Shown one piece after another: positions 13,152 to 30,412 of a stretch of 32,000 nt of DNA. How positions within the stretch are numbered: position 1 is the stretch's first letter; every line of letters begins with the position of its first letter. Position numbers and translations under genes: made by a program. Origin of the DNA: Candidatus Saccharimonadota bacterium (GTDB lineage: Bacteria; Pseudomonadota; Gammaproteobacteria; Enterobacterales; Enterobacteriaceae); contig CP024013.1 of assembly GCA_002688505.1 (NCBI GenBank), positions 210,001-242,000 on the forward strand, in the 5' to 3' direction. Below the pieces are notes generated by a model. The model was not told the DNA's origin. It did no database searches and saw only the letters and a program-made list of their open reading frames with translations.

Positions 13152-13154
13152 GAG
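13151..13154 (+). promoter_or_regulatory. Shine-Dalgarno-like GGAG for rpmF
   Basis: GGAG lies 5 nt upstream of the rpmF ATG (13160). Its first G is the last base of the rluC TAG stop. G-rich tetramers are rare in this sequence, so this one stands out. Confidence 0.5.
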
Positions 13155-13159
13155 TTAAA

Positions 13160-13336
13160 ATGGCTGTTCAAAAAAGTAAAAAAAGTAGATCTAAAAGAGG
13201 TCATCGTAGATCACATAATAATAATATAAATATACCTTTATTTGTTTTTAATAATAGAACTAATAAATATAATTTATATCATCATGTTGATGAAAATTAT
13301 ATAATTAATAGAAAAAATAAATTATTAATTAAATAA
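13160..13336 (+). CDS. rpmF: 50S ribosomal protein L32, 58 aa
   Basis: Not in the track because it is under 60 aa. MAVQKSKKSRSKRGHRRSHNN... matches E. coli L32 ([21 protein letters not shown], recalled). The stop is TAA 13334-13336. Confidence 0.93.
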   Translation: MAVQKSKKSRSKRGHRRSHNNNINIPLFVFNNRTNKYNLYHHVDENYIINRKNKLLIK

Positions 13337-14864: not shown

Positions 14865-14972
14865 ATTAATTTTTTTAAAATTATTTAAATTATTTTTAAC
14901 AATTTATTAATTAAATTAATTAATATTTTATATTTTAAAAAATATTTTTATATTATTAATTTATATTTATTT

Positions 14973-15392
14973 TTACATTTTATAAATTTTATTTTTTATA
15001 TATAATTCAATTTTTTGTATTATAATTTTTTTAGTAATATTTATATATTTAAATAAATTAATTTTTTTAAAAATCTTTATAAAGTTTATATTTATAATGT
15101 ATTTTTTTGTTTTATTATTACATATTGATAAAATTATAAATAATATTCCTTTAACTATTAAAGTATTACTATCGGCATTAATATTAAATTTTTTTTTATA
15201 TTTTTTTATTTTTAATCATATACTATTATAACATCCATATATTATATATTTTTTTTTTCTTAAATTTTTATTGTTTATTGGTAAATATTTACTTAAATAT
15301 ATTATATAATCTATTTTTTCTTCTGAATTAATACATAAATTAATTTCTTTAATAATTTTTTTAATATTAAATAATTTATTTATTTTTTTCAT
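14973..15392 (-). CDS. sufE: Cysteine desulfuration protein SufE, 139 aa
   Basis: Absent from the track because of one in-frame TGA. Translation: MKKINKLFNIKKIIKEINLCINSEEKIDYIIYLSKYLP...IYGCYNSIWLKIKK...ADSNTLIVKGILFIILSI. This parallels E. coli SufE (EEKYLYIIELGQRLP, IQGCQSQVWI, GDSDAAIVKGLIAVVFIL, recalled), including the persulfide-acceptor Cys. It lies directly downstream of sufS. Confidence 0.85.
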
Positions 15393-15401
15393 ATATATAA
15401 T

Positions 15402-16633
15402 CTATTTAATTTTTTTAATTATTTTTTTTAAGTAAAAAATAAATGTATTTATATCTTTTTTAGAATTATATAAAGCTATTGATATTCTACATACACCTGG
15501 TAAATTATAAAATTTAATTATTGGTATTGCACATTGATTACCTGTTCTTATACATATTCCATATTGATTTAATAAAAATCCTATATCATAACAATTACAA
15601 TTTTTTATATTAAATGATATTATTCCTATTCTTGGTTTTGTTCCGTATATTATAATTTCAGGTAATAGTTTTAATTTATTTATTAAGTATTTTGTTAATT
15701 TTTTTTCATATTTAATAATATTATTTATTTTTATATATTTAATATATTTAATAGCATATTTTAAACTAATTATTGATTCTACATTATATGTACCTGATTC
15801 AAATTTTCATGGTGAATTTATAAAATTTATATTTTTTATTATATTATTTTTAATATTTATATTTGATATTATTCCTCCTCCAAATTGTCATGGATTTAAT
15901 AATTCTAAAAGTTTTTTTTTTCCATATAATATTCCTATTCCATTCAGTGAATACATTTTATGTCCTGAAAAAACATAAAAATCACAATTTAAATTTTTAA
16001 CGTTTATTTTAATATGTGATATAGACTGAGATCCATCAATTATTGTTAATATTTTTTTTTTTTTGCTATTTTAATAATTTTTTTTATAGGATTTATTATA
16101 CCTAATATATTTGATACATGTGTTATAGATAATATTTTAGTATTATTATCTATTAATTTTTTAAAATGTTTTATATCTAATTTACCATTTTTTTTAATTT
16201 TTATTATTCTTAATTCTAAATTTAATTTTTTTGATATATAATATCATGGTACTATATTAGAATGATGTTCCATTAAAGATATAATAATATTATCTTTTGG
16301 TTTAGTAAATTTTTTTGTAATTATATTAGATAATAAATTTATTCCTTCAGTAGTATTTTTTATAAAAATAATTTCTTCTGGTGAGTTAGAATGTATAAAT
16401 TTACTAATTTTTATTCTTATTTCTTCTATAGAATTTGTATTTATATTACTTAAAGTATAAATTCCTCTATTTATTGATGAATATTTAGTTTTTATAAATT
16501 TATTTACTGATTCAATAACTAATTTAGGTTTTTGTACGGTAGTAGCATTATCTAAATATATTATTTTTTTATTATTTATTCTTTGTTTTAGTATAGGAAA
16601 ATCTTTTTTTATTTTTTTAATATTTAAATTCAT
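15402..16633 (-). CDS. sufS: Cysteine desulfurase SufS, interrupted by a single frame change inside an A13 tract (span 1232 nt, which is 3n+2)
   Basis: The N-terminal frame (ATG 16631-16633, through TGA 16244-16246) reads ...MEHHSNIVPW...ILSITHVSNILGIINPIKKIIKIAKKKKY and stops at TAA 16046-16048. The C-terminal part is in the adjacent frame and is open from 16070 down to TAG 15402-15404. It reads KKKKILTIIDGSQSISHIKINVKNLNCDFYVFSGHKMYSLNGIGILYGKK...FESGT...CIRTGNQCAIP...CRISIALYNSKKDI. The PLP-lysine motif SGHK and the catalytic-Cys motif RTGxxCA are intact. Both frames were checked codon by codon. Confidence 0.9.
16052..16064 (-). repeat. A13 homopolymer on the coding strand (T13 on +), site of the sufS frame change
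   Basis: Counted directly from the + strand: a, then 9 t, then 4 t, then gct, between 16051 and 16067. The two sufS reading frames overlap only across 16046-16073. Confidence 0.9.
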
Positions 16634-17658
16634 TTTAGTAATTCTTTTATAATAATATTGTTAATTAATTTATTTAAATTTTTTATTTTTATATATTTTA
16701 ATATGTTTTTAATAAAAGAAAATGATATTATTTTTTTTATATTATTAAAATTAATTCCTTTATTAAGTAAATAAAATATAATATTTTTATTTATATTTGT
16801 CATTGTTATTTTATGTTTACATTTATTATATTTATTAAATATTTTTATTTTTGGGTTATTTATAATATTAAATTTTTTAATTGTATATAAATTTTTATGT
16901 ATTATATATGAAATAGAGTTTTTAGCTTTTTTATTAATTTTTATTAACGAATTTATTAATATATTGCTTTTTTTATTTATTAAACAATTATGTTTATAAA
17001 TACTTTTTGATATTTTAAATTTATGTATAATTTTATTATAAAAAATAAATTTATTTTTATTGTTTGGTATTGAAATAGTATTAATATTTAAATTAGATTT
17101 TTTATTTAAATAAAATTTAGATTTAAATTTTATTTTTTTTATATTTAAGTTTATATTAATTATTTTTAATGATGATTTTTTATTTAAATTTATATAATAA
17201 TCTATATTATATACAGAAGATTTTTTGTTTATTAATAAATATATATAATATATATATGATAATTTTTTTATATTTATATAATATTTATATTTTATATTAT
17301 TATTTTTTTTAATTAAAATATGTTGTTCAATAAAATAAATTTTTGTATTTTTTTTTATATTTATATATATTATATTTTTTATTTTTTTATTTAAATTATT
17401 TATTAATATAAAATATATAATTTTTTTTATATTTTGATTTTTAAATATATTAAATATAAATGAAATTATATTATATTTTTTTATTTTTTTTATATTTAAT
17501 ATTTTAATTAAATTTTTATATGTATAGTAAATATTTTCATTTATAATTAATATTTTAATTGATTTTAATTTATATATTTTTTTTATAATATATTTTTTTG
17601 TTTTTTTATTAAATTTATTAATATTTAATATATTTTTTATGTTATTTGTATATATCAT
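16624..17658 (-). CDS. sufD: Fe-S cluster assembly protein SufD, 344 aa
   Basis: This is track ORF 16630-17658 extended through TGA 16630-16632 to TAA 16624-16626. The sequence is very degenerate. The C-terminal block CKHKITMTNINKNIIFYLLNKGINFNNIKKIISFSFIKNIL matches the SufB/SufD C-terminal signature (H-x-ATVGxLD-x-LFYLxSRGI...A..L...F, recalled). Its position between sufC and sufS supports the call. Confidence 0.75.
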
Positions 17659-17670
17659 ATTAAATAATAT

Positions 17671-18363
17671 TTATTTTATTGTTTTAATTTTACCTTTTTT
17701 TATTAAATATATATAATTAGGTTTAATATTTTTAATAAAATTATTATTATGAGTAATAATTAAAAAAGATTTTTTTTTTTTTTTTAAATATTTAATTATA
17801 GAAATAGTTTTTTTTATTGTTTTTTTATCTAATCCTGAATCTATTTCATCTAAAATTATTAATTTAGGTTTAAATAATAATATTTGTAATATTTCATTTT
17901 TTTTTTTTTCTCCTCCTGAAAATCCTTTGTTAAAGGATCTATTTAATAATTTTTTTGGAAAATTTATTTCTTTTATTTTTTTATTTAAAAATTTTTTAAA
18001 TTCTATTATATTTAATATTTTTTTATTTCTGTATTTTCTTATATAATTAAAAGTTTTATATAAAAAATATTGGGTTTTTAATCCTGGAATTTCTATATTT
18101 TCTTGAAATGAAATAAATAATCCTTTTCTTGCTCTTTCATCAATAGATAAATTTTTAAGATTTATATTATTAAATAAGATTTTACCTTCTAAAATATTAT
18201 ATTTTTTATTTCCAGCTATTGTTGATACTAAAGAACTTTTTCCTGATCCATTATTACCTTTTAGAATATGTATTTCGCCTTTTTTTATATTTAAATTAAT
18301 ATTATTAATTATTATTTTATTTTTTATTTTTATTTTTAGATTTTTAATTTTTAATAAATTCAT
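17671..18363 (-). CDS. sufC: Fe-S cluster assembly ATPase SufC, 230 aa
   Basis: Complete track ORF. Walker A GNNGSGKSS, ABC signature FSGGEKKKNEILQ and Walker B LIILDEIDSGLD are present. LFISFQENIEIPG matches E. coli SufC (IFMAFQYPVEIPG, recalled). The stop is TAA. Confidence 0.93.
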   Translation of the reverse strand: MNLLKIKNLKIKIKNKIIINNINLNIKKGEIHILKGNNGSGKSSLVSTIAGNKKYNILEGKILFNNINLKNLSIDERARKGLFISFQENIEIPGLKTQYFLYKTFNYIRKYRNKKILNIIEFKKFLNKKIKEINFPKKLLNRSFNKGFSGGEKKKNEILQILLFKPKLIILDEIDSGLDKKTIKKTISIIKYLKKKKKSFLIITHNNNFIKNIKPNYIYLIKKGKIKTIK

Positions 18364-18387
18364 ATAGATATATATTTTAAAAATAAA

Positions 18388-19761
18388 TTATAAATCAATA
18401 AATAGTATTTCTTTAGCTTCTAAATAAAATTCTAATGGTAACATATTTAATATATTTTTACAAAATCCATTAATTATCATAGATATAGCATTATTTTTTT
18501 TAATTCCTCTTTGTAGTAAAAAATAAAGTTGTGATTTTTTTATATAATTTGAACTTGCTTCATGTTCAATAATTGAATTACCATTTTTAACTTTTATTTT
18601 TGGAAAGGTATAAAATTTACATTTATTAGATAATAGTAATGAGTCACATTTAGTAAAGTTTACTGATTTATTAGAATTTTTTTTAATTATAATTAAATTT
18701 CTATTAGTATTTTTACTATAATTTGATAAAATATTTTTTGAAATTATTAATGATTTAGTTTTATTTCCTATATGTATAACTTTATTACCTGTATCGGATT
18801 GTTGTTTATTTTTTGTTATAGATATTGAATAATAATTACTTATACTTTTATTACCAAGTAATATAGTACTTGGATATTTTCAATTTATAGCTGATCCTTT
18901 TTCTAATTGTATTCAATTTATTTTACTTTTATATCCTAAACATAATGCTCTTTTAGTAACAAAATTTAATACACCTTTATTATTTTTTTTGTTTACATAT
19001 CAATTTTGTATAGTACAGTATTTTATAAATGATTTTTTTTTTAATATAATTTCTACAACTGCAGAATGTAATTGTTTTTTTTTTTTTATTATTGCAGTAC
19101 ATCCTTCAATATAATTTAAATATGTTTTATTTTCTAATATTATTAAGGTTCTTTCAAATTGTCCTAAATTAGGTGTATTAATTCTAAAATATGATGATAA
19201 GTCTATTGGACATTTTACATTTTTTGGTATATATATAAAAGTTCCATCTGAAAAGACACATGTATTTAATATAGAAAAGAAATTATCATCAATAGGTACT
19301 ACTCTAAACATATATTTTTTAACTAATGAAGGATATTTTTTTAAAGCTTTGTTAAAAGAACAAAATATAATTCCTAATTTTAATAATTTATTTTCATATG
19401 AAGTATTAATTGATACGCTATTAAGTATAGTGTCTATACCTATATTTTTTTTTAATATATTTAAATTTTTTAATATATTTTTTTTTTGTTTATTATTTAA
19501 TTTTATATGTGAATAATATTTATATTTTTGATAATTTATTTTTTTATATTTTCCATTAAATCATCTAGGTTCTTTTGTTTTATTTCATATTTTATATGCT
19601 TTTAATCTTATTTTAAGCATTCAATTAGGTTCATTTCTTATTTTAGATATTTGTTTTATTATTTTTTTATTTATACCTTTTTTTAATTCTTTATATGTAT
19701 AATTTTTTTTATTTAATTTTTTATTTATATTTAATTTTATTTTACTATTTTTAATAAACAT
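18388..19761 (-). CDS. sufB: Fe-S cluster assembly scaffold SufB, 457 aa
   Basis: The track shows only 19000-19311. I checked 18388-19776 codon by codon: a single frame with 8 in-frame TGA, ATG at 19759-19761 and TAA at 18388-18390. The C-terminus ...HEASSNYIKKSQLYFLLQRGIKKNNAISMIINGFCKNILNMLPLEFYLEAKEILFIDL has the typical SufB ending (LPMEFAVEA..L, recalled). Confidence 0.9.
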
Positions 19762-19773
19762 TCTAATATTTAT

Positions 19774-20772
19774 TTAATTTGTAATTAAATCTTTACAAAT
19801 TTTATTTAAAGAAATTTTATTTATATTATTTAATGTAGTTTTAGATATATTTATTAATGCTTCTTTAGTTAAGAATGCTTGATGTCCTGTTATTAATACA
19901 TTATAATATGACATTAATATATTAAAAATATTATCTTTAATAATTTTATTTGTATTATTTTTAAAGAAAATATTTTTTTCATTTTCATATACATCTATAG
20001 CTATTCCTTTGATTTTCTTATTTTTAATAGCTTTTATTAAAGATTTTGAATCAATTAATTCACCTCTACTTGTATTAATTATTAATACATTTTTTTTCAT
20101 TTTTTTAATATTATCATAATTAATCATATGATGATTATTTTTATTATATGGACAATGTAAAGTTATTATATCAGAATATTTGTATATTTTATTTAAAGAT
20201 GTATATTTAGCACCATATTTTTCTATTATAGGATATTTAATTATATCAAAAGCTATAATTTTCATTTTAAAACCTTTTAATATTTTAATTAGTTCTTGTC
20301 CTATTTTACCTGTTCCAATAATTCCTATAGTTTTTTTATACATATTAAATCCTATTAAATTATTTAATTTAAAATTTTGATTTTTAGAATTTTGATATGC
20401 TATGTGTATTTTTCTATTTAAATTTAATATCAAACTTAATGTATATTCAGCTATAGATCTAGGTGAATAAGATTTTACATTTATAACTTTTATTTTATTT
20501 TTATTTGCTAATTTAATATTTACGTTATTAAATCCTGTACATCTTAAAGCTATTATTTTAATATTATATTTTTTTAATTTATAAATTATTTCTTTATTTT
20601 TAGCATTATCGTTTACAAATATACATATATAATTATATCCTTTAGATAATTTAACAGTTTTTTTATTTAATTGTTTTTTTGTATATTTTATATAAAAATT
20701 AAATTTTTTATTAATTTTATTAAAATATTTTATTTCGTATTTTTGAGTACTATAAAATAAAATTTTATTCAT
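19774..20772 (-). CDS. ldhA: D-lactate dehydrogenase / D-isomer 2-hydroxyacid dehydrogenase (LdhA-like), 332 aa
   Basis: Complete track ORF with no TGA. It is collinear end to end with E. coli LdhA as I recall it: YSTQKYEIKYF, ICIFVNDN, IALRCTGFNNV, NRKIHIAYQ, GIIGTGKIG (NAD fold), ITLHCP, IINTSRGELID (Arg), AIDVYENE (Glu), LITGHQAFLTKEAL (His). Confidence 0.88.
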   Translation of the reverse strand: MNKILFYSTQKYEIKYFNKINKKFNFYIKYTKKQLNKKTVKLSKGYNYICIFVNDNAKNKEIIYKLKKYNIKIIALRCTGFNNVNIKLANKNKIKVINVKSYSPRSIAEYTLSLILNLNRKIHIAYQNSKNQNFKLNNLIGFNMYKKTIGIIGTGKIGQELIKILKGFKMKIIAFDIIKYPIIEKYGAKYTSLNKIYKYSDIITLHCPYNKNNHHMINYDNIKKMKKNVLIINTSRGELIDSKSLIKAIKNKKIKGIAIDVYENEKNIFFKNNTNKIIKDNIFNILMSYYNVLITGHQAFLTKEALINISKTTLNNINKISLNKICKDLITN

Positions 20773-20983
20773 TATTATATATAAATATTTATTTATATGT
20801 TAGTTATTATTATATATATTATATATTATTTTAAATTTTATTATTAATTTAATTTATTTTTATGATATATTATTTATTATAATTTTATTTTATTATTTTT
20901 AGTTATTTTAAAAAAATATTTTAAATTATATTTTAACTTATTAAAATTTTTGTTAGTATATTAAAATAATTTTATTTATTAAT

Positions 20984-21412
20984 ATGTTTATATTATGTTT
21001 TGATTTTGGAATTAATAATATTGGTATAGCAATAGGTCAATTTTATACTAGAACTGCTAGTCCTATAGTTAGTTTAAAAGCTTGTAATGGTATACCAGTT
21101 AATTGAAAATTTATTAAAGATCTTATTAAAGATTGATCAATAAAGAAGATTGTTATTGGATATCCTAAAATGTCATATTATAAAAATTTTAATAATAATC
21201 TATTTATAAAATATATTAATAAGTTTGTTATTATATTAAAAAAGAAATTTAAATTAAAGGTTTTTTTTTCTGATGAAAATTATACTTCTTATGCGGCTCG
21301 TAATTTTATAAAAACAAAAAATATGTTTTATAATTTATTCTATTCAAATAAAAGTATACATTCAATTTCTGCAGTTTATATATTAGAATCATGATTAAAA
21401 ATAAATAAATAA
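20984..21412 (+). CDS. ruvX: Putative pre-16S rRNA nuclease / Holliday-junction-resolvase-like protein YqgF (RuvX), 142 aa
   Basis: The ATG at 20984 is in frame with track ORF 21170-21394. In-frame TGA occur at 21104, 21134 and 21392, and the real stop is TAA 21410-21412. MFILCFDFGINNIGIAIGQ...IPVNWKFIKDLIKDW..KIVIGYP...DENYTSYAA...SISAVYILESW parallels E. coli YqgF (LAFDFGTKSIGVAVGQ...DERLSTVEA...SASAVIILESYF, recalled). Confidence 0.85.
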
Positions 21413-21418
21413 AATTAA

Positions 21419-22366
21419 TTATTTTTTGTTTTTTAGTCTTAAATGAAATATTAAGTTTAATATATCATTAGGTATTTTAGAATCTATTTTAATTAAATTA
21501 TTATTTATTGGATGTTTAAATTTTATTCTTGAAGCATGTAATGCTTGTCTATCTAATTTTTTTATTAAAATATTTATATTTTTTGAAATTTTATATTTTT
21601 TTATATTTTTATTTGTGTATATTTTTTCACCTACTATTGGATGATTAATATAATTCATATGTACTCTTATTTGATGTGTTCTACCAGTAATTAATTTTAT
21701 TTTTAGTAGTGTACAAAAACTAAATGTTTCTATTACATTATAATAAGTTATAGCTTTTTTTCCTTTTTTATTGATACACATTCTTGTTCTATTATATTTA
21801 TTTCTACTTATAGATTTTTTTATAATTCCATTATTATTTATTATTCCATATACTATAGTTTTATATATTCTTATTATTTTTTTTTTTTTTATATAATTTT
21901 TTAATTTTAAATAACTTAATATATTTTTAGCTACAAGTATAATACCTGTAGTATCTTTATCTAATCTATGTATTATTCCATATCTTGGTAAAATTTTATT
22001 AGATTTATAGTAAAACATTAATGAATTCATAATAGTATTATTTTTATTACCATAGCCTGGATGAATTACAGTGTTTTTATTTTTATTTATAATTAATAAA
22101 TATTTGTCTTCATATATTTTTTTAAATAATATTTTATTTAATGCTATATATTTATTTTTAATTATTTTTATAAATATTTTAATTAAATCATTTTTATTGA
22201 TTTTTTTACTAGGTTTTGTAATTATTTTATTGTTTACATAAACATTTTTATTTTTAATTAAATTAATAATTTTATTTCTAGAATATTTTTTAATTAAATA
22301 TTTTATATTAATATCTAATCTTTTATTTTTTAAAGTATTTTTTATTTTAATATAAATATATTTCAT
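21419..22366 (-). CDS. rluD: 23S rRNA pseudouridine synthase RluD-like, 315 aa
   Basis: Complete track ORF ending in TAA. It has an N-terminal S4-like region with KRLD. Motifs HRLDKDTTGIILVAKN and TGRTHQIRVHM are present. Confidence 0.85.
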   Translation of the reverse strand: MKYIYIKIKNTLKNKRLDINIKYLIKKYSRNKIINLIKNKNVYVNNKIITKPSKKINKNDLIKIFIKIIKNKYIALNKILFKKIYEDKYLLIINKNKNTVIHPGYGNKNNTIMNSLMFYYKSNKILPRYGIIHRLDKDTTGIILVAKNILSYLKLKNYIKKKKIIRIYKTIVYGIINNNGIIKKSISRNKYNRTRMCINKKGKKAITYYNVIETFSFCTLLKIKLITGRTHQIRVHMNYINHPIVGEKIYTNKNIKKYKISKNINILIKKLDRQALHASRIKFKHPINNNLIKIDSKIPNDILNLIFHLRLKNKK

Positions 22367-22405
22367 AAATTATTTTTTTTTTAATTATTAATAATAATTT
22401 ATTTA

Positions 22406-23803
22406 TTATTTACCTATACAAAAATTTTTAAATATATTATTTATAATTTTGTTTGAAATAGATTTTTTAATACCTAATATAGAATTTAATAATTTTTGAG
22501 AAATTAATAATTTTTGTGATATTATATCTAGATTTATATATTTAATATTATGTTTTGTAATATTTTTCATTAATTTTATAATACTTTTTATATTTTTTAT
22601 ATTTTTATTAAGTAAATAATTGTGTCTTTCATTACAATAAAATTTATTTTCTGTATTATTTATATATTTTATTTTATTTTTTATTATTTTTTTAATTTTA
22701 TTTATACCTATATTTTTTTTTATAGATGTATTTATTATATTAATATTATTTATTTTAAATTTTCTAGTTTTTTTTTTTGTTAGATCTATTTTATTTCTTA
22801 TTAAAATTATTTTCTGATTTTTATTTATATATTTAATTATTTTATTATATTCATTTAATATTTTATTTTTAGATGTTAATTTTGCATCTAACATAAATAT
22901 TATTATTGTTGAATTTTTTATTTCTTGTATAGTTTTTTTTATTCCTATTTTTTCTATTATATTATTTGTTTTTCTTATTCCTGTTGTATCTGTAATTTCT
23001 ATATTTATATTTTTAATAGTTATATAATCTTTTATTATATCTCTTGTAGTTCCTGGTATATTAGTTATTATTGAATTATTTTTATTTGTTAATTTATTCA
23101 TTAAACTTGATTTTCCTACATTAGGTTTGCCTATAATTGTTATTTTAATACCTTCATTATTTATAATATTAAATTTACTTTTTTTATATATTTTATTTAT
23201 ATTTTTATATATTTTTTTAATATTTTTTTTAATATATTTAAAATTTTTATAAGATAATTCATTTTCAGAAAAATTTATTTCTTTTGTTATTATAGTATTT
23301 ATATAATTTATTGATTTTATATTTATGTTTATTTTTTTTGAAAATTTACCTTTTAATGATATTAATGATAAATTTATTTGATTTGATGAGTTTGAATTTA
23401 TAATATTATTAATAGATTCTGCTTGTATTAAATCTAATTTTTGATTTAAAAAAGCTCTTTTAGTAAATTCTCCTGGTTTAGCTAATCTTATATTTTTAAT
23501 TTTTAAATTTAAAATTTCTTTTATAATTTTTTCTATTATTTTTTGTCCTCCGTGACATTGAAGTTCTAATACATCTTCACCTGTAAAAGATTTAGGAGAT
23601 TTATAATATATAGCTATACCATAATCCATTAATTTTTTTTTTTTATTTAAGAATTTACAAAATTTTGCATATCTAATTTTAGGTATTTTACCAATTATAA
23701 TTTTAGCAATTTTATTTGATTTTCTACCTGATATTCTTATTATACCTATACCTCCATTACCAACAGGAGTTGTTTGTGATATTATAGTTTTTAAAAATTT
23801 CAT
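22406..23803 (-). CDS. mnmE: tRNA modification GTPase MnmE (TrmE), 465 aa
   Basis: Complete track ORF. N-terminus IISQTTPVGNGGIGIIRISG, G1 motif GKPNVGKSSLMN, DTTGIR, and the diagnostic C-terminal FCIGK are present. It is adjacent to yidC-rnpA-rpmH as in most bacteria. Confidence 0.92.
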   Translation of the reverse strand: MKFLKTIISQTTPVGNGGIGIIRISGRKSNKIAKIIIGKIPKIRYAKFCKFLNKKKKLMDYGIAIYYKSPKSFTGEDVLELQCHGGQKIIEKIIKEILNLKIKNIRLAKPGEFTKRAFLNQKLDLIQAESINNIINSNSSNQINLSLISLKGKFSKKININIKSINYINTIITKEINFSENELSYKNFKYIKKNIKKIYKNINKIYKKSKFNIINNEGIKITIIGKPNVGKSSLMNKLTNKNNSIITNIPGTTRDIIKDYITIKNINIEITDTTGIRKTNNIIEKIGIKKTIQEIKNSTIIIFMLDAKLTSKNKILNEYNKIIKYINKNQKIILIRNKIDLTKKKTRKFKINNINIINTSIKKNIGINKIKKIIKNKIKYINNTENKFYCNERHNYLLNKNIKNIKSIIKLMKNITKHNIKYINLDIISQKLLISQKLLNSILGIKKSISNKIINNIFKNFCIGK

Positions 23804-23838
23804 AAAATTATTATATTTTATATTAAATATTTATTATT

Positions 23839-24624
23839 TTATAATATTATATTTAAAATATTATTTGTTATATTATAAATCAATATACTACAAGGTATTT
23901 TAAATAATATATATATAAAAATCATAGATATTACTATTTTTAGTATATAGTAATTATTTTTATAATTTATTAAAATTTTTTTATAATATAAATATATTGA
24001 TATTCCTAATAATATTTGTAAAATATAATATTTATCATAATTAGATAGATTATTAATTCATAAAAATATTAAGTTATTATTATATTTAATATTATTTAAT
24101 ATTTTATATATTAATATAAATGTAAATATATTAATTAAGTTATATAATATATTATATATAAAGTATATTTTATTTTTTAAATATATTTTTTTTATATTTA
24201 TAATATTTTTGTTATTAGTATTTAATTTTTTTTTGTTTATAGAATATATATTTTTTATTTTATTTATTAAATATAAAAATAATTTTATAATAATTGATAT
24301 AACTACAATAGTTATTATTCAATCTTTGTAAATATAATTAATATAATATATTATATTAATTATTATATTTATAAGAAAAAAATTTTTTTTAGTAAAAAAT
24401 ATATTATTATTTTTTATTATTTTATTTAATTTATTTATAATATCTAGTTTTGTTTTTTTTTTTATATAAATTATTTTTTTATTATTTATATTTTTATTTA
24501 TTATTTTATTATTAATAATAATATTTTTATTTTTTAAATTTAAATATGTATTATTAAAATATTTTATTATAAATATAAAAAGAAAAGTTATTAATAGTGA
24601 GTAAAGAAATTTTTTATAATACAT
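23839..24624 (-). CDS. yidC: Membrane protein insertase YidC, minimal form of 261 aa lacking the large periplasmic P1 domain
   Basis: This is track ORF 24319-24624 extended codon by codon through TGA 24319-24321 and 24058-24060 to TAA 23839-23841. IFLWINNLSNYDKYYILQILLGISIYLYYK parallels E. coli YidC [62 protein letters not shown] parallels [35 protein letters not shown] (both recalled). Its position between rnpA and mnmE supports the call. Confidence 0.75.
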
Positions 24625-24633
24625 TTATTTGTT

Positions 24634-24990
24634 TTAATTTAAAATTTTTATTTTTCATATTTTATTTATATATTTATTAAATATTTTTTTATTTATTTTA
24701 GTAATACTATTATTTATTTGAAATATAAAATCTATTTTTTTAATTTTAAATTGATTTATTCTAAAATTTTCATATATTTTTCTTTTAATTTTATTTCTTA
24801 ATGTTGATAATTTTATTTGTTTTTTTTTAATTATTATTTTAATTCTTGGATATTTTAAGTTATTTAATTCATAATATATTATAAAAGGTTTAAATATTTT
24901 TATATTTTTTAATTTATTTTTGTTTTTAATTTTCATTTTTTTTTTGAAAAATAATCTTTTTAAGATGATAATTTTTTTCTTTTTTTTCAT
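24634..24990 (-). CDS. rnpA: RNase P protein component RnpA, 118 aa from the first ATG
   Basis: This is track ORF 24655-24990 extended through TGA 24655-24657 to TAA 24634-24636. [33 protein letters not shown] matches the RnpA RNR motif region (HPRIGLTVAKK...ERNRIKRLTRESFRL, recalled). The start is uncertain: ATG 24990 overlaps rpmH by 31 nt, and the alternative in-frame ATG at 24936 avoids the overlap. Confidence 0.78.
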
Positions 24991-25094
24991 CTTCTATTTG
25001 ATAATATTTTTCTTCCACTTTTTTTAGACATTCTTTTTAAGAATCCATATTTTCTTTTTCTTTTTATTTTTGATGGTTGGTATGTTCTTTTCAT
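24960..25094 (-). CDS. rpmH: 50S ribosomal protein L34, 44 aa
   Basis: Not in the track because it is short. [44 protein letters not shown] matches E. coli L34 ([39 protein letters not shown], recalled). There is one in-frame TGA. The stop is TAA 24960-24962. Confidence 0.92.
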
Positions 25095-25169
25095 TTTTTT
25101 TAAATTTTATTTAATATTTATAATTTAAATTATTATATTATTAATAATATATAATATTATAAATTATTT
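25095..25169. promoter_or_regulatory. Divergent rpmH/dnaA intergenic spacer (75 bp); presumed promoter region and possibly origin-proximal
   Basis: This is the only noncoding DNA between the rpmH-rnpA-yidC-mnmE block (-) and dnaA-dnaN-gyrB (+). It is composed of A and T only. No specific element could be called. Confidence 0.3.
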
Positions 25170-26612
25170 ATGTGTAAATATGGGGTTATTTTGTTAAAAA
25201 ATTTATGAAATAAATGTTTATTAGAGTTAAAAAAATATATATCTATTTATGAATTTAATATTTGGATATTACCCTTACAGGTATTAATTTATAATAATAT
25301 TATAAATTTATATTCTCCTAATAAATTTGTTATTAAACATATTAAAAAAAATTATTTAATTTATATAAATAATTTTTTTTTAAAATATTGAAAATATAAA
25401 AGAATAAAACCTATTTTAAATTTTTTAATTGGAAGTATAAATAATAGTAATAAAAATAATTTATTTAAAAATAATTTTATTTATTTAAATAGTAAAAAAA
25501 ATAAATATAATTCATATGATTTTAAAGAATTTAATAATTTTAATTTATTAAAGAAGTATAGTTTTGATAATTTTATATATAATAAATCTAATATTTATGC
25601 ATATAAAAAATCCATAAAAATATGTAATTTAAATAGTAATTTTAAGTATTTATTTATTTATTCAAAAGTTGGTTTAGGTAAAACTCATTTATTAAATTCT
25701 ATAGGTAATAGGATTAATTATTTATATAATGGTAAAAAAAGTATTTTTTATATAAATATGAAAGTCTTTTTAAGTAAAATTGAATATTTTTTATATAAAA
25801 ATTTAATTGAAAATTTTATATTTTATTTAAAATCTTTTTCTATTTTTTTAATTGATGATATACAATTTTTATATAATAAAAAATTAATTCAAAATAAATT
25901 TTTAAATATATTTAATATGTTATTTAAATATAATAAATTTATAATTTTAACATCTAATTGTAATGTAAATAAATTAAAAGGTATAAATAATGAAATAATT
26001 TCTAAATTGTATTATAATTTTGTATTTATAAAAATTAATAATTGTGATATAAATTTAAGGTATAAATTTTTAATTAGTAAGTGTAAATATATTAATTTTT
26101 GTTTAGATAAAAAAATATTATATTTTATATCTGAATATTTAAATTCAAATTTTTATGAATTAGAAAATATATTATATTTAATATATGTAAATGCTATTAA
26201 TTTAAATTATATTAATAAAATAAATATTAATTTTATTAAATATATATTATATAAATTTATTTTAAATAATAGTAATTATAATTTAAATGTTAAAATATAT
26301 GATATACAAAAAGTAGTTTGTAATTATTATAATATAACTATTGATAATTTATTGTCTAAATATCGTTATAAATCTTTTGTATGACCAAGACAAATATCAA
26401 TAGCTATAAGTAAAAAATTAACTAATTATAGTTTAATAAAGTTAGGATTATATTTTGGTGGTTTAAGTAATTCTTATATTTTATATTCTTATAATAAAAT
26501 AAAAAAATTATATATGAATAATTCTAAAGTTAAATTAGAATTTAATAATTTAATAAAACTTATTGTTTATTATAAAAATGAAATTTATTATAAAAAAAAA
26601 AAAATTAATTAA
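25170..26612 (+). CDS. dnaA: Chromosomal replication initiator DnaA, 480 aa, strongly diverged
   Basis: ATG 25170 is the first in-frame ATG after a TAA at 25152. The frame was checked through TGA 25206, 25389 and 26382 to TAA 26610-26612. LKNLWNKCLLELKKYISIYEFNIWILPLQ parallels E. coli [28 protein letters not shown]. Walker A is SKVGLGKTHLL and Walker B is FLIDDIQF. Domain IV reads IQKVVCNYYNITIDNLLSKYRYKSFVWPRQISIAISKKLTNYSL..LGLYFGG. Confidence 0.9.
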
Positions 26613-27723
26613 ATTTTTATCTAAATTTAATAGTTGTGTATCAATAAATCCTAAAAATCCTATTTTATCTAATATTTTATTATCATTAAATAAAAATTTT
26701 CTTTTTTTAATGGTTACTAATTTAGATATTGAAATAGGATATAGTTTATTTTTACCTAGTGAAAATATTTTAGATGTAGGTGATATTACAGTTAATATTA
26801 GAAAATTATATGATATATGTAAAACATTTCCTGAGAATAGTAATTTATTATTTAAGTCATATAATAATAAAATTAAAATTTTTTGTTTAAATAGTGTTTT
26901 ATCATTATCTATTTTACCTTCTTATGATTTTCCTATAATTAATAAAAATCAATTTAATTTTAAATATAAATTTATTATATATTCTTATTTATTTAAAGAT
27001 ATAATAAGTTCAATTTATTTTTCTATAGGTAATAATGATATTCATTGTTATTTAAATGGAATGTTAATAGAATATATTGATAATATTTTTTATTTTGTTA
27101 CAACTGATAGTTATCGTTTATCTATTTATAAAATTTATGATAATAATGATTTAATAGTAAAATATACTAAAAGTAAATTTAATTTTATTTTACCAAGAAA
27201 ATTGGTTATAGAATTATATAAATTATTAGATTTAATTAAAGATAATAAAAAGATTATTTTTGAAATTGATAATAATATTGTCAAAATTAATTTTGATAAT
27301 TTTATTATATATTCTAGTTTAATTGATGGTGATTTTCCAGATTATAAAAATGTTTTGGATTTAACTTATAATTGTTATAATTATATAGATTTAAATATAA
27401 AAGATTTTAAAAATTCTTTATTAAGATCTTCTATAATTAGTAGTTATTCATTTAATTATGTAACTTTAACTTTTAAAAAAGATTTATTAAAAATTTATTC
27501 TAATAATACATTTTCTGATGAGATTAAAGATATAATATATATTAATAATAATAATGATTTTTTTAAAATTAATTTAAATGTTAAATTTATATTAGATATA
27601 TTAAATGTTATTAAAGATTCATCAAAAATTAGATTTTATTTTAAAAATAGTAATTCAATAATTAAAATTGATGATATTAAAAATAAATATATAATATATA
27701 TGATAATGCCTATTAAATTATAA
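26578..27723 (+). CDS. dnaN: DNA polymerase III beta sliding clamp DnaN, 381 aa
   Basis: This is track ORF 26563-27723, but I prefer ATG 26578. That start gives MKFIIKKKKLIKFLSKF...NPILSNILLSL, like E. coli MKFTVEREHLLKPLQQV...LPILGNLLLQV (recalled). The C-terminus YIIYMIMPIKL parallels the E. coli ending VVMPMRL. It overlaps dnaA by 35 nt. Confidence 0.92.
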   Translation: MKFIIKKKKLIKFLSKFNSCVSINPKNPILSNILLSLNKNFLFLMVTNLDIEIGYSLFLPSENILDVGDITVNIRKLYDICKTFPENSNLLFKSYNNKIKIFCLNSVLSLSILPSYDFPIINKNQFNFKYKFIIYSYLFKDIISSIYFSIGNNDIHCYLNGMLIEYIDNIFYFVTTDSYRLSIYKIYDNNDLIVKYTKSKFNFILPRKLVIELYKLLDLIKDNKKIIFEIDNNIVKINFDNFIIYSSLIDGDFPDYKNVLDLTYNCYNYIDLNIKDFKNSLLRSSIISSYSFNYVTLTFKKDLLKIYSNNTFSDEIKDIIYINNNNDFFKINLNVKFILDILNVIKDSSKIRFYFKNSNSIIKIDDIKNKYIIYMIMPIKL

Positions 27724-27756
27724 TTAATTTTATTAAATTTTATTGTAGAGATAAAT

Positions 27757-30162
27757 ATGTTATTTAATAATTCTTATAATTCTTCTAATATTAAAGTTTT
27801 AAAAGGTTTAGATGCAGTTAGAAAACGTCCTGGTATGTATATTGGTGATACAGATGATGGTACTGGATTGCATCATATGGTTTTTGAAGTTATAGATAAT
27901 TCTATAGATGAATCTTTATCTGGTTTTTGTAAAAATATTTTTGTTAAAATATATAAAGATAATTCTATTTCTGTTTTAGATGATGGCAGAGGTATACCAG
28001 TAGATATACATAAAGATGAAAATATTTCTGCAGCTGAATTAATAATGACAGTATTACATGCTGGTGGGAAATTTGATAATAATTCTTATAAAATTTCTGG
28101 TGGTTTACATGGTGTTGGTGTTTCTGTAGTTAATGCTCTTTCAGAGAAATTAATATTAAAGGTTTATAGAAATAAAAAAATTTTTTATCAAGAATATAAT
28201 TATGGGGTTCCTTTATCAAAATTATATATAATAGGTAATACAATTTATAATGGAACTTATATAAGATTTTGGCCTGATAAAAGTATTTTTAAAAATTGTA
28301 TAAAATTTAAATATTCTATTTTATTTAAAAGATTAAATGAATTATCATTTTTAAATAATGGTTTGAATATAAGTTTAGTAGATAAAAGAAATAATAAATC
28401 TTTTTTGTTTAATAATAAAGGAGGTTTAAAATCATTTTTAAATTATATAATAGATAATAAAGTTGTTATAAATAATAAAAAATTTTATTTTTATTATATT
28501 AAAGATAATATGTCATTGGAAGTATCTAGTTGTTGATTAGATAATTCAAATTGTTCTATTTTATGTTTTACTAATAATATTCCTCAAATAGATGGAGGAA
28601 CTCATTTAATAGGTTTTAAATCTGCTATAACTCGTACTATAAATTTTTACATTAATAATGAATTTTTAAAAAAAAAAAATAAATTAAATGTTATAGGAAG
28701 AGATACTCAAGAAGGCTTATATGCTATAATTTCTATTAAATTTTTTAATCCTAAGTTTTCTTCTCAAACAAAAGATAAATTAATTTCTTCTGAAATTAAA
28801 AGTTTTGTTGAATCTTTGGTTATAAAAAATTTGTATGATTTTTTATTAGAAAATCCTAATGATGCTAAATTAATAATTAATAAAATAATTAATTCTTATA
28901 AGATTAGAGAATCTATTAAAAAATTTAGAGAAATATCCAAAAAAAAATCTAATTTAGATTTATTAAATATTTCTAATAAGTTAGCAGATTGTCAGGAAAA
29001 AAATCCTTTATATTCTGAAATTTTTTTAGTTGAAGGTGATTCTGCAGGAGGTTCAGCTAAACAAGGTAGAAATAGATTAAATCAAGCAGTATTGCCTTTA
29101 AAAGGTAAAATTTTAAATGTAGAAAAAACTAATTTAGATAAAATATTATCTTCAAATGAAATAAATATTTTAATTTCTGTTTTAGGTTGTGGTATAGATA
29201 ATAATGATTTTAATATAAATAAATTAAGATATAATAAAATTATTATTATGACTGATGCTGATGTTGATGGAGCACATATTCGTACTTTATTATTAACATT
29301 TTTTTATAGATATATGAAACAATTAATAATTAATGGAAATTTATATATTGCTAAACCTCCGTTATATAGAATACAAGATAAAAAAAATATATTATATGTT
29401 AATAATGAAAAAGATTTATTAAAAAATAAAATTTTATTTATTTTTAATAATATTAACATTTACAAAAAAAAAAATTTTATTTTATTAAAATCTAAATATT
29501 TAATTAAATTAGTTTTAATTTATATTAAATTTTTTAAAAATTTTAATAATTATAAATATAAATTTATAGATTTTTTATTGAATAAATTAATATTTTTTAA
29601 GCTTTTAAATATAAAAAATATAAATAAATATAATATTTGGTTAGATAGTTTTTTGTTTTATTTAAATGATAATAATTTAAATATAAAAGTAAATTGTGAT
29701 TTAATATTAAAAGATGATGTTTTTATAGGTTTTGATTTTAAAATTTTTAGTGGTTTTTATAGTGAAAATATTATTTTAAAAAAAAAATTTTTTAATAAAT
29801 ATTATATTAAAATTATTAATTTATGTAAAAATTTATATTTTTTTAAAAGTTATAATAAATTTTATGTTTTATTAAATAATAAAAAATATTATTTTAATAA
29901 TATATTAAATTTGATAAATTTCGTTTTAAAAATTAAGAGTAATAATATATATATTCAACGTTATAAAGGTTTAGGTGAAATGAATCCAGATCAGTTATGA
30001 AATACTACTATGAATCCAAAAAATAGATTTTTAATAAAAATTAATTTATCTAATTTAGAAACTTCTGATGTTTTATTTAAAATTTTAATGGGTGATAATG
30101 TAAAATTAAGAAAATCTTTTATTAAAAAATATTCTAATAAATTTAATAATAAAAATATTTAA
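27757..30162 (+). CDS. gyrB: DNA gyrase subunit B, 801 aa
   Basis: Track ORFs 27757-28536 and 28816-30000 share a frame. The interval between them was checked and contains only TGA 28534-28536. The frame continues past TGA 29998-30000 to TAA 30160-30162. The conserved N-terminal motifs are nearly identical to E. coli: [41 protein letters not shown]. Other motifs: [77 protein letters not shown]. Confidence 0.96.
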
Positions 30163-30168: not shown

Positions 30169-30241
30169 CTCCTCCGACTGGATTCGAACCAGTGACATAC
30201 GGATTAACAGTCCGTTGTTCTACCAACTGAACTACAGAGGA
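30169..30241 (-). tRNA. tRNA-Asn (anticodon GUU), no encoded CCA
   Basis: The reverse complement folds by eye as a cloverleaf: acceptor tcctctg/cggagga, D arm gttc-agttggta-gaac, anticodon arm acgga-ctGTTaa-tccgt, T arm actgg-ttcgaat-ccagt, discriminator g. It starts 6 nt after the gyrB stop. Confidence 0.9.
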
Positions 30242-30325: not shown

Positions 30326-30412
30326 AGTGGGATGTCTGAGTGGTTTAAAGAGCATGCTTGGAAAGCATGTATACTTTTATTAGTATCAAGGGTTCAAATC
30401 CCTTTCCCACTA
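30326..30412 (+). tRNA. tRNA-Ser (anticodon GGA), type II with long variable arm, no encoded CCA
   Basis: Acceptor agtggga/tcccact, anticodon arm catgc-ttGGAaa-gcatg, variable arm atact-tttatt-agtat, T arm aaggg-ttcaaat-ccctt, discriminator a. Folded by eye. Confidence 0.85.

What the first reader, a model, noticed from the sequence alone, without database searches (positions are those of the whole stretch)
25170..26612. DnaA ORF is intact but DNA-contact and AAA+ arginine residues are replaced
I aligned by eye to E. coli DnaA, with numbering reconstructed from the recalled C-terminal sequence. The domain IV signature FGGRDHTTVLHA reads FGGLSNSYILYS here (26457-26489). That changes D433 to S, H434 to N, T435 to S and H439 to Y. 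P423 becomes I (TNHSLPEIG versus TNYSLIKLG). R399 and R407 appear retained. As I recall, these are the residues that make base-specific contacts with the TTATNCACA box in the domain IV-DNA structure. In the AAA+ module, Walker A and B are kept. Box VII DRLKSRF reads NEIISKL, changing R281 to E (25992-25994) and the arginine finger R285 to K (26004-26006). Sensor II VRELEGAL reads FYELENIL, changing R334 to Y (26154-26156). Either this DnaA recognises a different, probably A/T-only motif with altered ATP control, or it is decaying despite an open frame.
Basis: inference. Interest (0 to 1): 0.6.

Follow-up and report, generated by a model that had tools for sequence, protein, structure and literature searches.

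The report
Eroded but maintained DnaA initiator
The replication-initiator gene dnaA of a tiny, extremely AT-rich insect-symbiont genome (most likely the beetle symbiont Stammera) is intact and still under selection. It has nevertheless lost the ATP-sensing arginines and most DNA-box-reading residues that almost all other bacteria keep, so it probably starts replication without the usual ATP switch.

Summary
R281E, R285K and R334Y sit at exactly the stated codons, and FGGRDHTTVLHA reads FGGLSNSYILYS. The frame is open only with TGA = Trp; it has three in-frame TGA codons.

Among 182 other DnaAs, R281, R285 and R334 are each kept in 181, H434 and T436 in all 182, and D433 in 180. T435S, H439Y and changes at P423 are ordinary variation.

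The gene is not a pseudogene:
- 19 relatives from 258-326 kb genomes all keep the ORF.
- An A↔T-only dN/dS is about 0.2-0.36, against about 0.1 for dnaN and gyrB.
- 11-20 stop codons would be expected under neutrality per close strain pair; none is seen.
- The predicted fold is DnaA.

Kept: the P-loop, Walker B, R399/R407/Q408 and the domain I residues W6, E21 and F46. R334 is lost in the whole clade. R285 was lost several times, and also in Ca. Legionella polyplacis and a Buchnera.

Best reading: an ATP-switch-free initiator with relaxed DNA specificity, an intermediate stage before dnaA loss. This is a new variant of a known kind and is untested biochemically.

The parts
25170..26612 (+). 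dnaA coding sequence, 480 codons under code 4. The real start may be the TTG at 25191, since relatives start about 7 codons later.
   Evidence: The exact protein is P0001, on a 271,175-bp NCBI contig.
25206..25208 (+). In-frame TGA read as Trp. It is equivalent to E. coli W6, the domain I dimerisation residue. The other in-frame TGA codons are at 25389-25391 and 26382-26384.
   Evidence: W at this column in 180 of 182 other DnaAs.
25200..25373 (+). Domain I (DnaA_N, residues 11-68). The W6, E21 (25251-3), N44 and F46 (25326-8) equivalents are kept.
   Evidence: Residue roles from PMC5448010.
25551..26195 (+). AAA+ domain III. The Pfam Bac_DnaA match covers residues 128-281; the lid, which holds sensor II, runs to about residue 342.
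   Evidence: Foldseek: TMt 0.87-0.89 and rmsd 2.3-2.5 A to DnaA domain III structures 8bv3 and 2z4r.
25662..25685 (+). Walker A, SKVGLGKT. The K178/T179 equivalents are kept; the first Gly is Ser.
25761..25763 (+). E204 -> K. E is found here in 172 of 182 other DnaAs. Its role as the hydrolysis-linked glutamate of E. coli DnaA is recalled from memory, not checked against a paper.
25782..25784 (+). V211 -> E. Together with R245 -> L (25884-25886), this replaces the two residues that bind single-stranded DNA.
   Evidence: Role from PMC5835720.
25854..25859 (+). Walker B, D235 D236, kept.
25956..25958 (+). Sensor I, D269 -> N.
   Evidence: D is found here in 179 of 182 others.
25992..26006 (+). 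Box VII reads E-I-I-S-K: R281 -> E (25992-4) and the arginine finger R285 -> K (26004-6).
   Evidence: R in 181 of 182 others at each position.
26154..26156 (+). Sensor II, R334 -> Y.
   Evidence: R in 181 of 182 others. Lost in all 19 clade members.
26301..26501 (+). Domain IV (Bac_DnaA_C, residues 378-444). R399 (26364-6), R407 (26388-90) and Q408 are kept.
   Evidence: Foldseek against 1j1v: TMt 0.94, rmsd 1.0 A, 41% identity.
26454..26489 (+). DnaA signature, FGGLSNSYILYS in place of FGGRDHTTVLHA: R432L, D433S, H434N, T435S, T436Y, H439Y. P423I lies at 26436-8.
26578..26612 (+). 35-nt overlap between the dnaA 3' end and the dnaN start, containing a run of 13 A (26592-26604).
   Evidence: The same 35-nt overlap occurs in L082 and L085-L088.
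26578..27723 (+). dnaN (beta clamp), the downstream neighbour. gyrB follows at 27757-30162.
24960..25094 (-). rpmH (L34, 44 aa), transcribed divergently from dnaA. The 75-nt spacer 25095-25169 has a conserved TATAAT-like stretch and no G/C-containing box.

Best explanation
This is the orthologous dnaA of a roughly 0.27-Mb, roughly 12-15% GC gammaproteobacterial symbiont that reads TGA as Trp. The organism is most likely Candidatus Stammera capleta.

The protein is still made and still selected, but as a stripped-down initiator.

Kept:
- The nucleotide-binding P-loop and Walker B.
- The arginines of the basic loop and recognition helix (R399, R407, Q408).
- The domain I surface that dimerises (W6) and recruits the DnaB helicase (E21, F46).

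Lost:
- Every residue that couples ATP to oligomer activation and to hydrolysis: E204, R281, the arginine finger R285 and the sensor II R334.
- The two residues that bind single-stranded DNA (V211, R245).
- Most major-groove readers of the 9-mer box (R432, D433, H434, T436).

Inferred mechanism. The protein binds nucleotide without a working ATP/ADP switch. It sits on very AT-rich origin DNA, mainly through minor-groove and backbone contacts. It then serves chiefly as a platform for helicase loading on DNA that melts easily.

Inferred order of events:
1. Sensor II and R432 were lost in the clade's ancestor.
2. R285 and R281 were then lost repeatedly in different lineages.
3. E204, D433 and T436 were lost in this subclade.
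4. H434 was lost only in this strain and its closest relative.

Shown versus inferred. Identity, register, residue states, conservation statistics, purifying selection and fold are shown. ATP behaviour, DNA specificity and helicase loading are inferred.
For: Family and context:
- Pfam finds the three DnaA domains.
- The gene order rnpA-rpmH | dnaA-dnaN-gyrB is seen here and in five relatives.
- The AF2 model has mean pLDDT 81.6. Its best PDB matches are all DnaA: 8btg, 1l8q and 2hcb for the whole protein, and 1j1v for domain IV at rmsd 1.0 A.

Residue states and rarity:
- The family-invariant positions that are kept are W6, G175, G177, K178, T179, H180, D235, D236, R399, R407, Q408, T418, S421 and G426.

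Selection:
- The A<->T-only pN/pS is 0.36, or 0.22 if the neighbours' pS is used. dnaN plus gyrB give 0.10.
- The difference from neutrality has p = 1.5e-6.
- Zero stops are seen where 11-20 would be expected per close strain pair.
- Domain IV is the most conserved domain within the clade, and the replacement residues are fixed there: L432 in 17 of 19, S435 in 18 of 19, Y439 in 19 of 19.

Convergence:
- Ca. Legionella polyplacis has R281Q, R285K and R334L.
- Buchnera (Eriosoma) has E204K, R281F and R285K.

Literature:
- The E. coli sensor II R334 mutant loses ATPase activity but still oligomerises. The R285 mutant cannot form an active complex (PMC3401641).
- The base-specific contact residues are R399, P423, D433, H434, T435 and H439 (PMC7561715).
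- Several symbionts have lost dnaA altogether (PMC4389277, PMC7198777).
Against: - No biochemical data exist, and no origin or binding motif could be identified. The window holds no strand-skew switch and no cluster of canonical boxes: 34 matches to TTATNCACA at up to 1 mismatch, against 55 expected.
- In E. coli the R285 mutant is inactive for initiation, so an initiator role without an arginine finger needs a changed mechanism that has not been demonstrated.
- Lys at 285 might keep part of the finger's function.
- Arginine loss is partly a genome-wide effect of AT pressure. GyrB lost 12 of its 27 conserved Arg, mostly to Lys.
- The NCBIfam equivalog model TIGR00362 scores 276.6, below its cutoff of 343.9.
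- The dN/dS estimator is home-made, pairwise and based on few synonymous sites. Nei-Gojobori gives 0.73-0.81 for this subclade, though that method is biased at 4% GC3.
- The presence or absence of hda, dnaC and dnaB in this genome was not checked.
Confidence: 0.5

Rival explanations
1. The gene is a decaying remnant. The protein no longer does anything, and the open frame is a transient state before loss.
For: - 41% radical changes at family-invariant positions, against 14% in DnaN and GyrB.
- Nei-Gojobori omega of 0.73-0.81 in this subclade.
- The neighbouring yidC is truncated here and is not called in L085.
- Many symbionts have lost dnaA.
- Erosion weakly tracks genome size: rho 0.49, p 0.04.
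Against: - All 19 clade members keep a full-length ORF.
- 11-20 nonsense changes are expected per close strain pair if neutral, and none is seen: P = 2e-5 to 3e-9.
- pN is below pS with p = 1.5e-6.
- The P-loop, R399 and R407 are invariant across the clade, even though only 5 Arg remain in the whole protein.
- The fold is predicted with confidence.
Confidence: 0.08
2. The frame is kept open only because dnaN starts inside the dnaA 3' end. A stop codon or frameshift in dnaA would break translational coupling or operon expression of the essential clamp, while the DnaA protein itself is dispensable.
For: A 35-nt dnaA/dnaN overlap is conserved in six genomes.
Against: - Coupling would select against stops, not against amino-acid changes. 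Yet nonsynonymous change is 3-5 times rarer than synonymous change.
- Specific functional residues are invariant: K178, T179, D235, R399, R407, W6.
- Domain IV is more conserved than the rest of the protein.
Confidence: 0.04
3. DnaA is retained for a job other than initiation, for example as a DNA-binding regulator or nucleoid protein. Replication would then start by a DnaA-independent route, as in some cyanobacteria that keep dnaA.
For: - The residues essential for origin unwinding in E. coli (R285, V211, R245) are gone.
- DnaA-independent replication with dnaA retained is documented in cyanobacteria (PMC7198777).
- Domain IV is the best-conserved part of the protein.
Against: - The domain I residues for dimerisation and DnaB binding (W6, E21, F46) are retained. 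That fits helicase loading better than regulation.
- A genome of about 250 genes has little regulation left to perform (inference).
Confidence: 0.2
4. Function is essentially canonical. Lys285 acts as the finger, other residues compensate for R334 and the signature changes, and the protein still runs an ATP switch on ordinary DnaA boxes.
For: - The Walker motifs and the fold are kept.
- R285K is the most conservative possible change.
- T435S and H439Y occur in normal DnaAs.
Against: - Four independent ATP-cycle residues (E204, R281, R285, R334) are changed at once, two of them radically.
- Other clade members have I, F or S at position 285 and N, I, S, F or L at 334.
- H434 and T436 are invariant in 182 of 182 other DnaAs but are changed here.
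- Canonical boxes are under-represented in the window.
Confidence: 0.1

Closest known systems
Canonical bacterial DnaA (E. coli DnaA; Pfam PF11638 + PF00308 + PF08299; structures 1j1v, 2hcb, 8btg)
   Same: Same gene by descent:
- Same three-domain layout.
- Same position between rpmH and dnaN.
- Same predicted fold.
- P-loop, Walker B, R399, R407, Q408, W6, E21 and F46 are kept.
   Different: It lacks E204, V211, R245, D269, R281, R285, R334, R432, D433, H434 and T436. It scores below the TIGR00362 equivalog cutoff. It carries a C-terminal tail that runs into dnaN.
E. coli DnaA sensor II mutants (R334A/H) and the arginine-finger mutant R285A
   Same: Both laboratory changes occur here naturally. 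R334 mutants lose ATPase but still oligomerise and initiate, which models the state inferred for the clade's ancestor (PMC3401641).
   Different: - The laboratory R285A protein is inactive, whereas here the gene remains under selection without R285.
- Here the changes are combined with loss of the ssDNA-binding and box-reading residues.
DnaA of other reduced symbionts: Ca. Legionella polyplacis and Buchnera aphidicola (Eriosoma)
   Same: Independent loss of the box VII arginines, plus sensor II in Legionella polyplacis, in AT-rich reduced genomes.
   Different: Those proteins keep the domain IV reading head (RDHTT or KDHTT). The Stammera clade has changed it as well.
dnaA-less symbionts (Wigglesworthia, most Blochmannia, Carsonella, Sulcia, Baumannia) and the dnaA pseudogene of Blochmannia obliquus
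   Same: Same evolutionary setting of genome reduction, in which the need for regulated initiation is relaxed (PMC4389277).
   Different: Here the gene is retained, open and constrained. It looks like a stage before loss, or a stable alternative to loss.
Cyanobacteria that keep dnaA but replicate independently of it (Synechocystis PCC 6803, Synechococcus PCC 7002)
   Same: They are a precedent for a retained DnaA whose initiator role has changed (PMC7198777).
   Different: They are free-living organisms. Whether their DnaAs have lost the arginine finger or sensor II was not examined here.

Membership tests
DnaA protein family (orthology) | Domain architecture DnaA_N + AAA+ Bac_DnaA + Bac_DnaA_C helix-turn-helix | tested here: met
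   Scores of 34.9, 105.8 and 61.9 bits, all above the Pfam gathering scores.
DnaA protein family (orthology) | Score above the NCBIfam equivalog cutoff (TIGR00362) | tested here: not met
   276.6 bits against a cutoff of 343.9. It is still the best family by far; Hda scores 45 bits.
DnaA protein family (orthology) | Conserved gene neighbourhood rpmH | dnaA-dnaN-gyrB | tested here: met
   and the same order in five relatives.
DnaA protein family (orthology) | DnaA fold in domains III and IV | tested here: met
   AF2 mean pLDDT 81.6. Foldseek top hits are 8btg, 1l8q and 2hcb, and domain IV matches 1j1v with TMt 0.94.
Canonical ATP-switch DnaA initiator (function) | Walker A Lys/Thr and Walker B Asp-Asp | tested here: met
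   K178, T179, D235 and D236 are kept.
Canonical ATP-switch DnaA initiator (function) | Box VII arginines R281 and R285 (the arginine finger) | tested here: not met
   E and K here. R in 181 of 182 other DnaAs at each position.
Canonical ATP-switch DnaA initiator (function) | Sensor II arginine R334 | tested here: not met
   Y here. R in 181 of 182 others. Lost in all 19 clade members.
Canonical ATP-switch DnaA initiator (function) | ssDNA-binding residues V211 and R245 | tested here: not met
   E and L here. Position 245 is itself variable among other DnaAs: R in 98 of 182.
Canonical ATP-switch DnaA initiator (function) | Base-specific DnaA-box contacts R399, P423, D433, H434, T435 and H439 (Fujikawa 2003, via PMC7561715) | tested here: not met
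   Only R399 is kept. D433S and H434N are at near-invariant positions. T435S, H439Y and P423I fall within normal variation.
Canonical ATP-switch DnaA initiator (function) | ATP binding and hydrolysis, box binding, origin unwinding | not testable with these tools
   This needs purified protein and a mapped origin.
Canonical ATP-switch DnaA initiator (function) | Domain I dimerisation and DnaB-binding residues W6, E21 and F46 | tested here: met
   All three are kept. Roles from PMC5448010.
Pseudogene | Frame disrupted by stops or frameshifts | tested here: not met
   The frame is open under code 4. The three TGA codons fall at Trp or aromatic positions. Relatives also have full-length ORFs.
Pseudogene | Neutral evolution (nonsynonymous rate equal to synonymous rate) | tested here: not met
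   A<->T-only pN/pS of 0.22-0.36, p = 1.5e-6 against neutrality.

The most novel reading that the evidence does not exclude
Stammera DnaA is a natural initiator with no arginine finger, no sensor II arginine and no box-reading head. It starts replication without an ATP/ADP switch, by non-specific or AT-only minor-groove binding plus helicase recruitment. The same stepwise dismantling recurs independently in other reduced symbionts (Legionella polyplacis, some Buchnera), first sensor II and RIDA, then the finger, then the reading head. That would make it a general, ordered route from regulated DnaA to no DnaA.
Probability: 0.35. Interest if true: 0.65.

Novelty: new variant of a known kind. Interest (0 to 1): 0.55.

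Why it matters
DnaA's arginine finger, sensor II arginine and signature motif are treated as near-universal requirements for bacterial replication initiation. Here a whole symbiont clade has kept dnaA under purifying selection for its entire diversification (the beetle symbiosis has been dated to the Paleocene) while discarding these residues one by one.

If the protein still initiates replication, three things follow:
- It defines the minimal working core of DnaA: P-loop, R399/R407 and domain I.
- It shows that the ATP switch is a regulatory add-on that can be dispensed with when cell-cycle control is relaxed.
- It gives an ordered series of natural intermediates that explains how other symbionts could lose dnaA completely.

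Stammera lives extracellularly, so host takeover of replication control is a less obvious explanation here than for intracellular symbionts.

Tried and rejected
- The genome-contig scan with the DnaA alignment returned only free-living Pseudomonadota and other phyla, and no Stammera genome. It still served as the outgroup set for DnaA, DnaN and GyrB.
- Cluster look-ups gave no organism names for the clade.
- Literature searches for Stammera with dnaA, for accession CP043978, and for DnaA with endosymbiont and arginine finger found nothing. The supplement of the 50-genome paper does not list dnaA.
- Nei-Gojobori and YN00 dN/dS are unreliable at about 4% GC3. YN00 failed for most genes. I replaced them with an A<->T-only estimator.
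- A search for canonical DnaA boxes found no enrichment.
- The rpmH-dnaA spacer is 75 nt and holds only a promoter-like TATAAT stretch.
- The gyrB-rpsP spacer is filled by two tRNA genes.
- The spacer at 20773-20983 is featureless A/T.
- Third-position skews show no polarity switch, so there is no origin in the window.
- Hda and DnaC-like paralogues were considered and rejected.
Full report
**What the sequence is**

The window is extremely AT-rich, with 5-19% GC per kb and about 4% GC at third codon positions. The stretch 25170-26612 translated with the standard bacterial code has three internal TGA codons. Read as Trp (table 4), it gives one 480-residue protein.

The first TGA (25206-25208) falls on the column where 180 of 182 other DnaAs have Trp, equivalent to E. 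coli W6. TGA = Trp is therefore the correct reading.

Family searches give these results:
- Pfam finds DnaA_N, Bac_DnaA and Bac_DnaA_C, all above their gathering scores.
- NCBIfam's DnaA equivalog TIGR00362 is by far the best model, but at 276.6 bits it stays below its cutoff of 343.9.

The neighbours are rnpA and rpmH, transcribed divergently (rpmH at 24960-25094, minus strand). Downstream lie dnaN (26578-27723) and gyrB (27757-30162). This is the orthologous dnaA.

**Which organism**

The exact protein (P0001) sits on a 271,175-bp NCBI contig. Eighteen relatives at 42-74% identity sit on contigs of 258-326 kb, for example CP043978.1 and CP144843.1. The nearest free-living relatives are Gammaproteobacteria at about 30% identity.

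The only gammaproteobacterial symbiont reported to read UGA as Trp is Candidatus Stammera capleta, at 15.4% GC with 255 CDS (PMC8629427 and PMC10540940). The 50 sequenced Stammera genomes span 216-340 kb (bioRxiv 10.1101/2023.12.12.571295). The assignment to Stammera is therefore very likely, but it is inferred and not read from a record title.

**Checking the observation**

- phmmer against solved DnaA structures.
- A MAFFT alignment of 202 DnaAs that includes E. coli DnaA taken from an annotated genome.

By coincidence, the window's residue numbers equal E. coli numbers from about residue 399 onward.

|---|---|---|---|
| E204 | K | 25761-25763 | no |
| V211 | E | 25782-25784 | no |
| R245 | L | 25884-25886 | no |
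| D269 | N | 25956-25958 | no |
| R281 | E | 25992-25994 | yes |
| R285 | K | 26004-26006 | yes |
| R334 | Y | 26154-26156 | yes |
| R399 | R (kept) | 26364-26366 | yes |
| R407 | R (kept) | 26388-26390 | yes |
| P423 | I | 26436-26438 | yes |
| R432 | L | 26463-26465 | no |
| D433 | S | 26466-26468 | yes |
| H434 | N | 26469-26471 | yes |
| T435 | S | 26472-26474 | yes |
| T436 | Y | 26475-26477 | no |
| H439 | Y | 26484-26486 | yes |

**How unusual the replacements are**

Among 182 DnaAs outside the clade:

| Residue | Number with the E. coli residue |
|---|---|
| R281 | 181 |
| R285 | 181 |
| R334 | 181 |
| H434 | 182 |
| T436 | 182 |
| D433 | 180 |
| D269 | 179 |
| E204 | 172 |
| R432 | 168 (the other 14 have K) |

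The Ser in place of the first P-loop glycine is also common (43 of 182).

As a control for AT pressure, I extracted DnaN and GyrB from the same outgroup loci. At positions conserved in at least 95% of outgroups, the window keeps:

| Protein | Positions kept | Radical changes |
|---|---|---|
| DnaA | 54 of 102 (53%) | 41% |
| DnaN | 27 of 35 (77%) | 14% |
| GyrB | 228 of 280 (81%) | 14% |

The DnaA-GyrB difference has p = 8e-8. Arginine loss is partly genome-wide: GyrB lost 12 of 27 conserved Arg, 6 of them to Lys. In DnaA only one of the four lost invariant Arg became Lys.

**Is it decaying?**

No, not in the sense of a dead gene.
- All 19 clade proteins are full length.
- The predicted structure is confident, with mean pLDDT 81.6 and domains III and IV mostly above 85. 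Its best PDB matches are DnaA structures. Domain III fits 8bv3 and 2z4r at 2.3-2.5 A, and domain IV fits the DnaA-box complex 1j1v at 1.0 A.

Standard dN/dS fails here. Nei-Gojobori gives 0.73-0.81 for this subclade but is distorted at 4% GC3, and YN00 mostly failed. I therefore compared only A<->T differences at sites where that change is synonymous, nonsynonymous or nonsense.

Pooled over three independent close strain pairs:
- dnaA has pN 0.040 and pS 0.112, a ratio of 0.36. The ratio is 0.22 if the neighbours' pS is used.
- dnaN plus gyrB have pN 0.019 and pS 0.180, a ratio of 0.10.
- dnaA differs from neutrality with p = 1.5e-6.
- dnaA differs from the neighbours' nonsynonymous rate with p = 6e-7.
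- About 126-128 sites per pair could become stop codons through one A<->T change. Under neutrality, 11-20 hits per close strain pair would be expected, and none is seen (P = 2e-5 to 3e-9).

The gene is under purifying selection that is 2-3.5 times weaker than on its neighbours.

**What is kept and what is lost**

Among 53 positions conserved in at least 95% of the 182 outsiders, the window keeps 28:
- W6.
- F138, F141 and N147.
- The whole P-loop: G175, G177, K178, T179, H180, L181.
- G186.
- Walker B D235 and D236.
- K243, Q247, F250, F254, N255, L257.
- L306, K309, L340.
- R399, R407, Q408, T418, S421, G426.

The protein has only five arginines in all. Two of them are R399 and R407, which are invariant in all 19 clade members. 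The domain I residues for dimerisation (W6) and for DnaB binding (E21, F46) are also kept (roles from PMC5448010).

Lost residues and their roles:
- The arginine finger R285. The E. coli mutant cannot form an active complex (PMC3401641).
- The sensor II R334. Its mutant loses ATPase but still oligomerises (same source).
- R281.
- E204.
- The ssDNA-binding V211 and R245 (PMC5835720).
- Most of the base-specific contact set (PMC7561715, citing Fujikawa 2003).

Within the clade, domain IV is the most conserved domain, at 63% mean pairwise identity. Domain I is at 53%, the AAA+ core at 50% and the lid at 45%. The replacement residues are themselves fixed: L432 in 17 of 19, S435 in 18 of 19, Y439 in 19 of 19. 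This pattern fits a stable, altered DNA-binding surface better than random decay.

**Order of events**

- R334 is replaced in every clade member (by Y, F, N, I, S or L), as are R432, T435 and H439. These changes are most simply ancestral.
- R285 survives in P0005, P0007, P0008, P0011 and P0122. It is K, I, F or S elsewhere, including in close relatives of strains that keep R: P0009 and P0013 against P0007 and P0008. It was therefore lost several times.
- E204K, D433S and T436Y are shared by the window's four-member subclade (P0001-P0004).
- H434N is found only in P0001 and P0002.
- The number of family-invariant positions kept correlates weakly with genome size (rho 0.49, p 0.04, with no phylogenetic correction).

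**Convergence elsewhere**

I ran a profile search of 1.84 billion representative proteins and then tabulated residues and looked up names. The same AAA+ arginines are gone in other reduced symbionts:
- Ca. Legionella polyplacis: R281Q, R285K, R334L.
- Buchnera aphidicola from Eriosoma: E204K, R281F, R285K.
- Unnamed proteins P0123, P0124 and P0127.

Legionella polyplacis and the Buchnera protein keep the domain IV reading head. I found no paper that describes this pattern. Complete loss of dnaA in symbionts is well known (PMC4389277, PMC7198777, PMC4285127).

**Origin and motif**

- Canonical boxes (TTATNCACA, up to 1 mismatch) are not enriched: 34 found against 55 expected.
- The rpmH-dnaA spacer is 75 nt, with a conserved TATAAT-like stretch and no G/C-containing box.
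- dnaA and dnaN overlap, so there is no spacer between them.
- The gyrB-rpsP spacer holds two tRNA genes.
- At third codon positions, the + strand is G-rich and T-rich in every one of 26 genes, whatever their orientation.

The whole window therefore lies on one replichore and contains neither origin nor terminus. The question of an alternative motif could not be addressed with this window.

**Conclusion**

Selection on DnaA's ATP switch, and on part of its sequence readout, has been relaxed. But the gene persists under selection, with a conserved core made of the P-loop, the basic-loop and helix arginines, and the domain I surface. Its most likely role is a switch-free, low-specificity initiator and helicase-loading platform on very AT-rich DNA. 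I put confidence in this at about 0.5.

The rivals, with confidence:
- A non-initiator role: 0.2.
- Near-canonical function through compensation: 0.1.
- True decay: 0.08.
- ORF maintenance only for dnaN coupling: 0.04.

Noticed in passing
window 26578-26612 (A run at 26592-26604): dnaA and dnaN overlap by 35 nt, and the overlap contains a run of 13 A, read as KKKK in both frames. The 35-nt overlap is the same in five related genomes. A long homopolymer inside two essential genes is a slippage hot spot.
   Followed up: partly
window 15402-16633, minus strand (A run at 16052-16064): sufS is split into two ORFs (16046-16633 and 15402-15956). The frame changes at a 13-A run. This is either a frameshift pseudogene or a gene rescued by slippage, even though sufS is reported among the most constrained Stammera genes.
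   Followed up: partly
window 23839-24624, minus strand; L085 1918-2477; L087 1045-2433: yidC is only 261 aa here and 258-265 aa in L082 and L086. It is 462 aa in L087 and L088, and it is not called at all in L085. An essential membrane insertase appears to be eroding in this subclade; its A<->T-only dN/dS is 0.23-0.45.
   Followed up: partly
whole window: Third codon positions are about 4% G+C. On the + strand, G exceeds C and T exceeds A in all 26 genes whatever their orientation. The entire 32 kb therefore lies on one replichore, even though 18 kb of genes (7106-24990) are on the minus strand.
   Followed up: yes
window 25170-26612 compared with 26578-30162: Synonymous A<->T divergence between strains is lower in dnaA (0.11) than in dnaN plus gyrB (0.18), p = 0.006. 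This is unexplained.
   Followed up: no
window 25170-25208; L082, L085-L088 around 3001: The annotated dnaA start is not conserved. It is ATG at 25170 here, whereas relatives start about 7 codons later at TTG or ATG. Residues 1-7 have pLDDT below 50. The real start may be the TTG at 25191.
   Followed up: partly
window 24960-25094, minus strand: rpmH (L34, 44 aa) contains an in-frame TGA. It overlaps the predicted rnpA start at 24990, and rnpA calls in relatives extend over rpmH.
   Followed up: no
window 30169-30241 (minus strand) and 30326-30412 (plus strand): Two tRNA genes fill the gyrB-rpsP spacer.
   Followed up: no
records CP144843.1 and CP144840.1 (L086, L087): The authors of these later Stammera records say they set the sequence start at the skew-defined origin. 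In them, dnaA lies roughly half a chromosome away: 140-147 kb of 260 kb, and 175-182 kb of 306 kb. If the record start really is the origin, dnaA is far from it.
   Followed up: no
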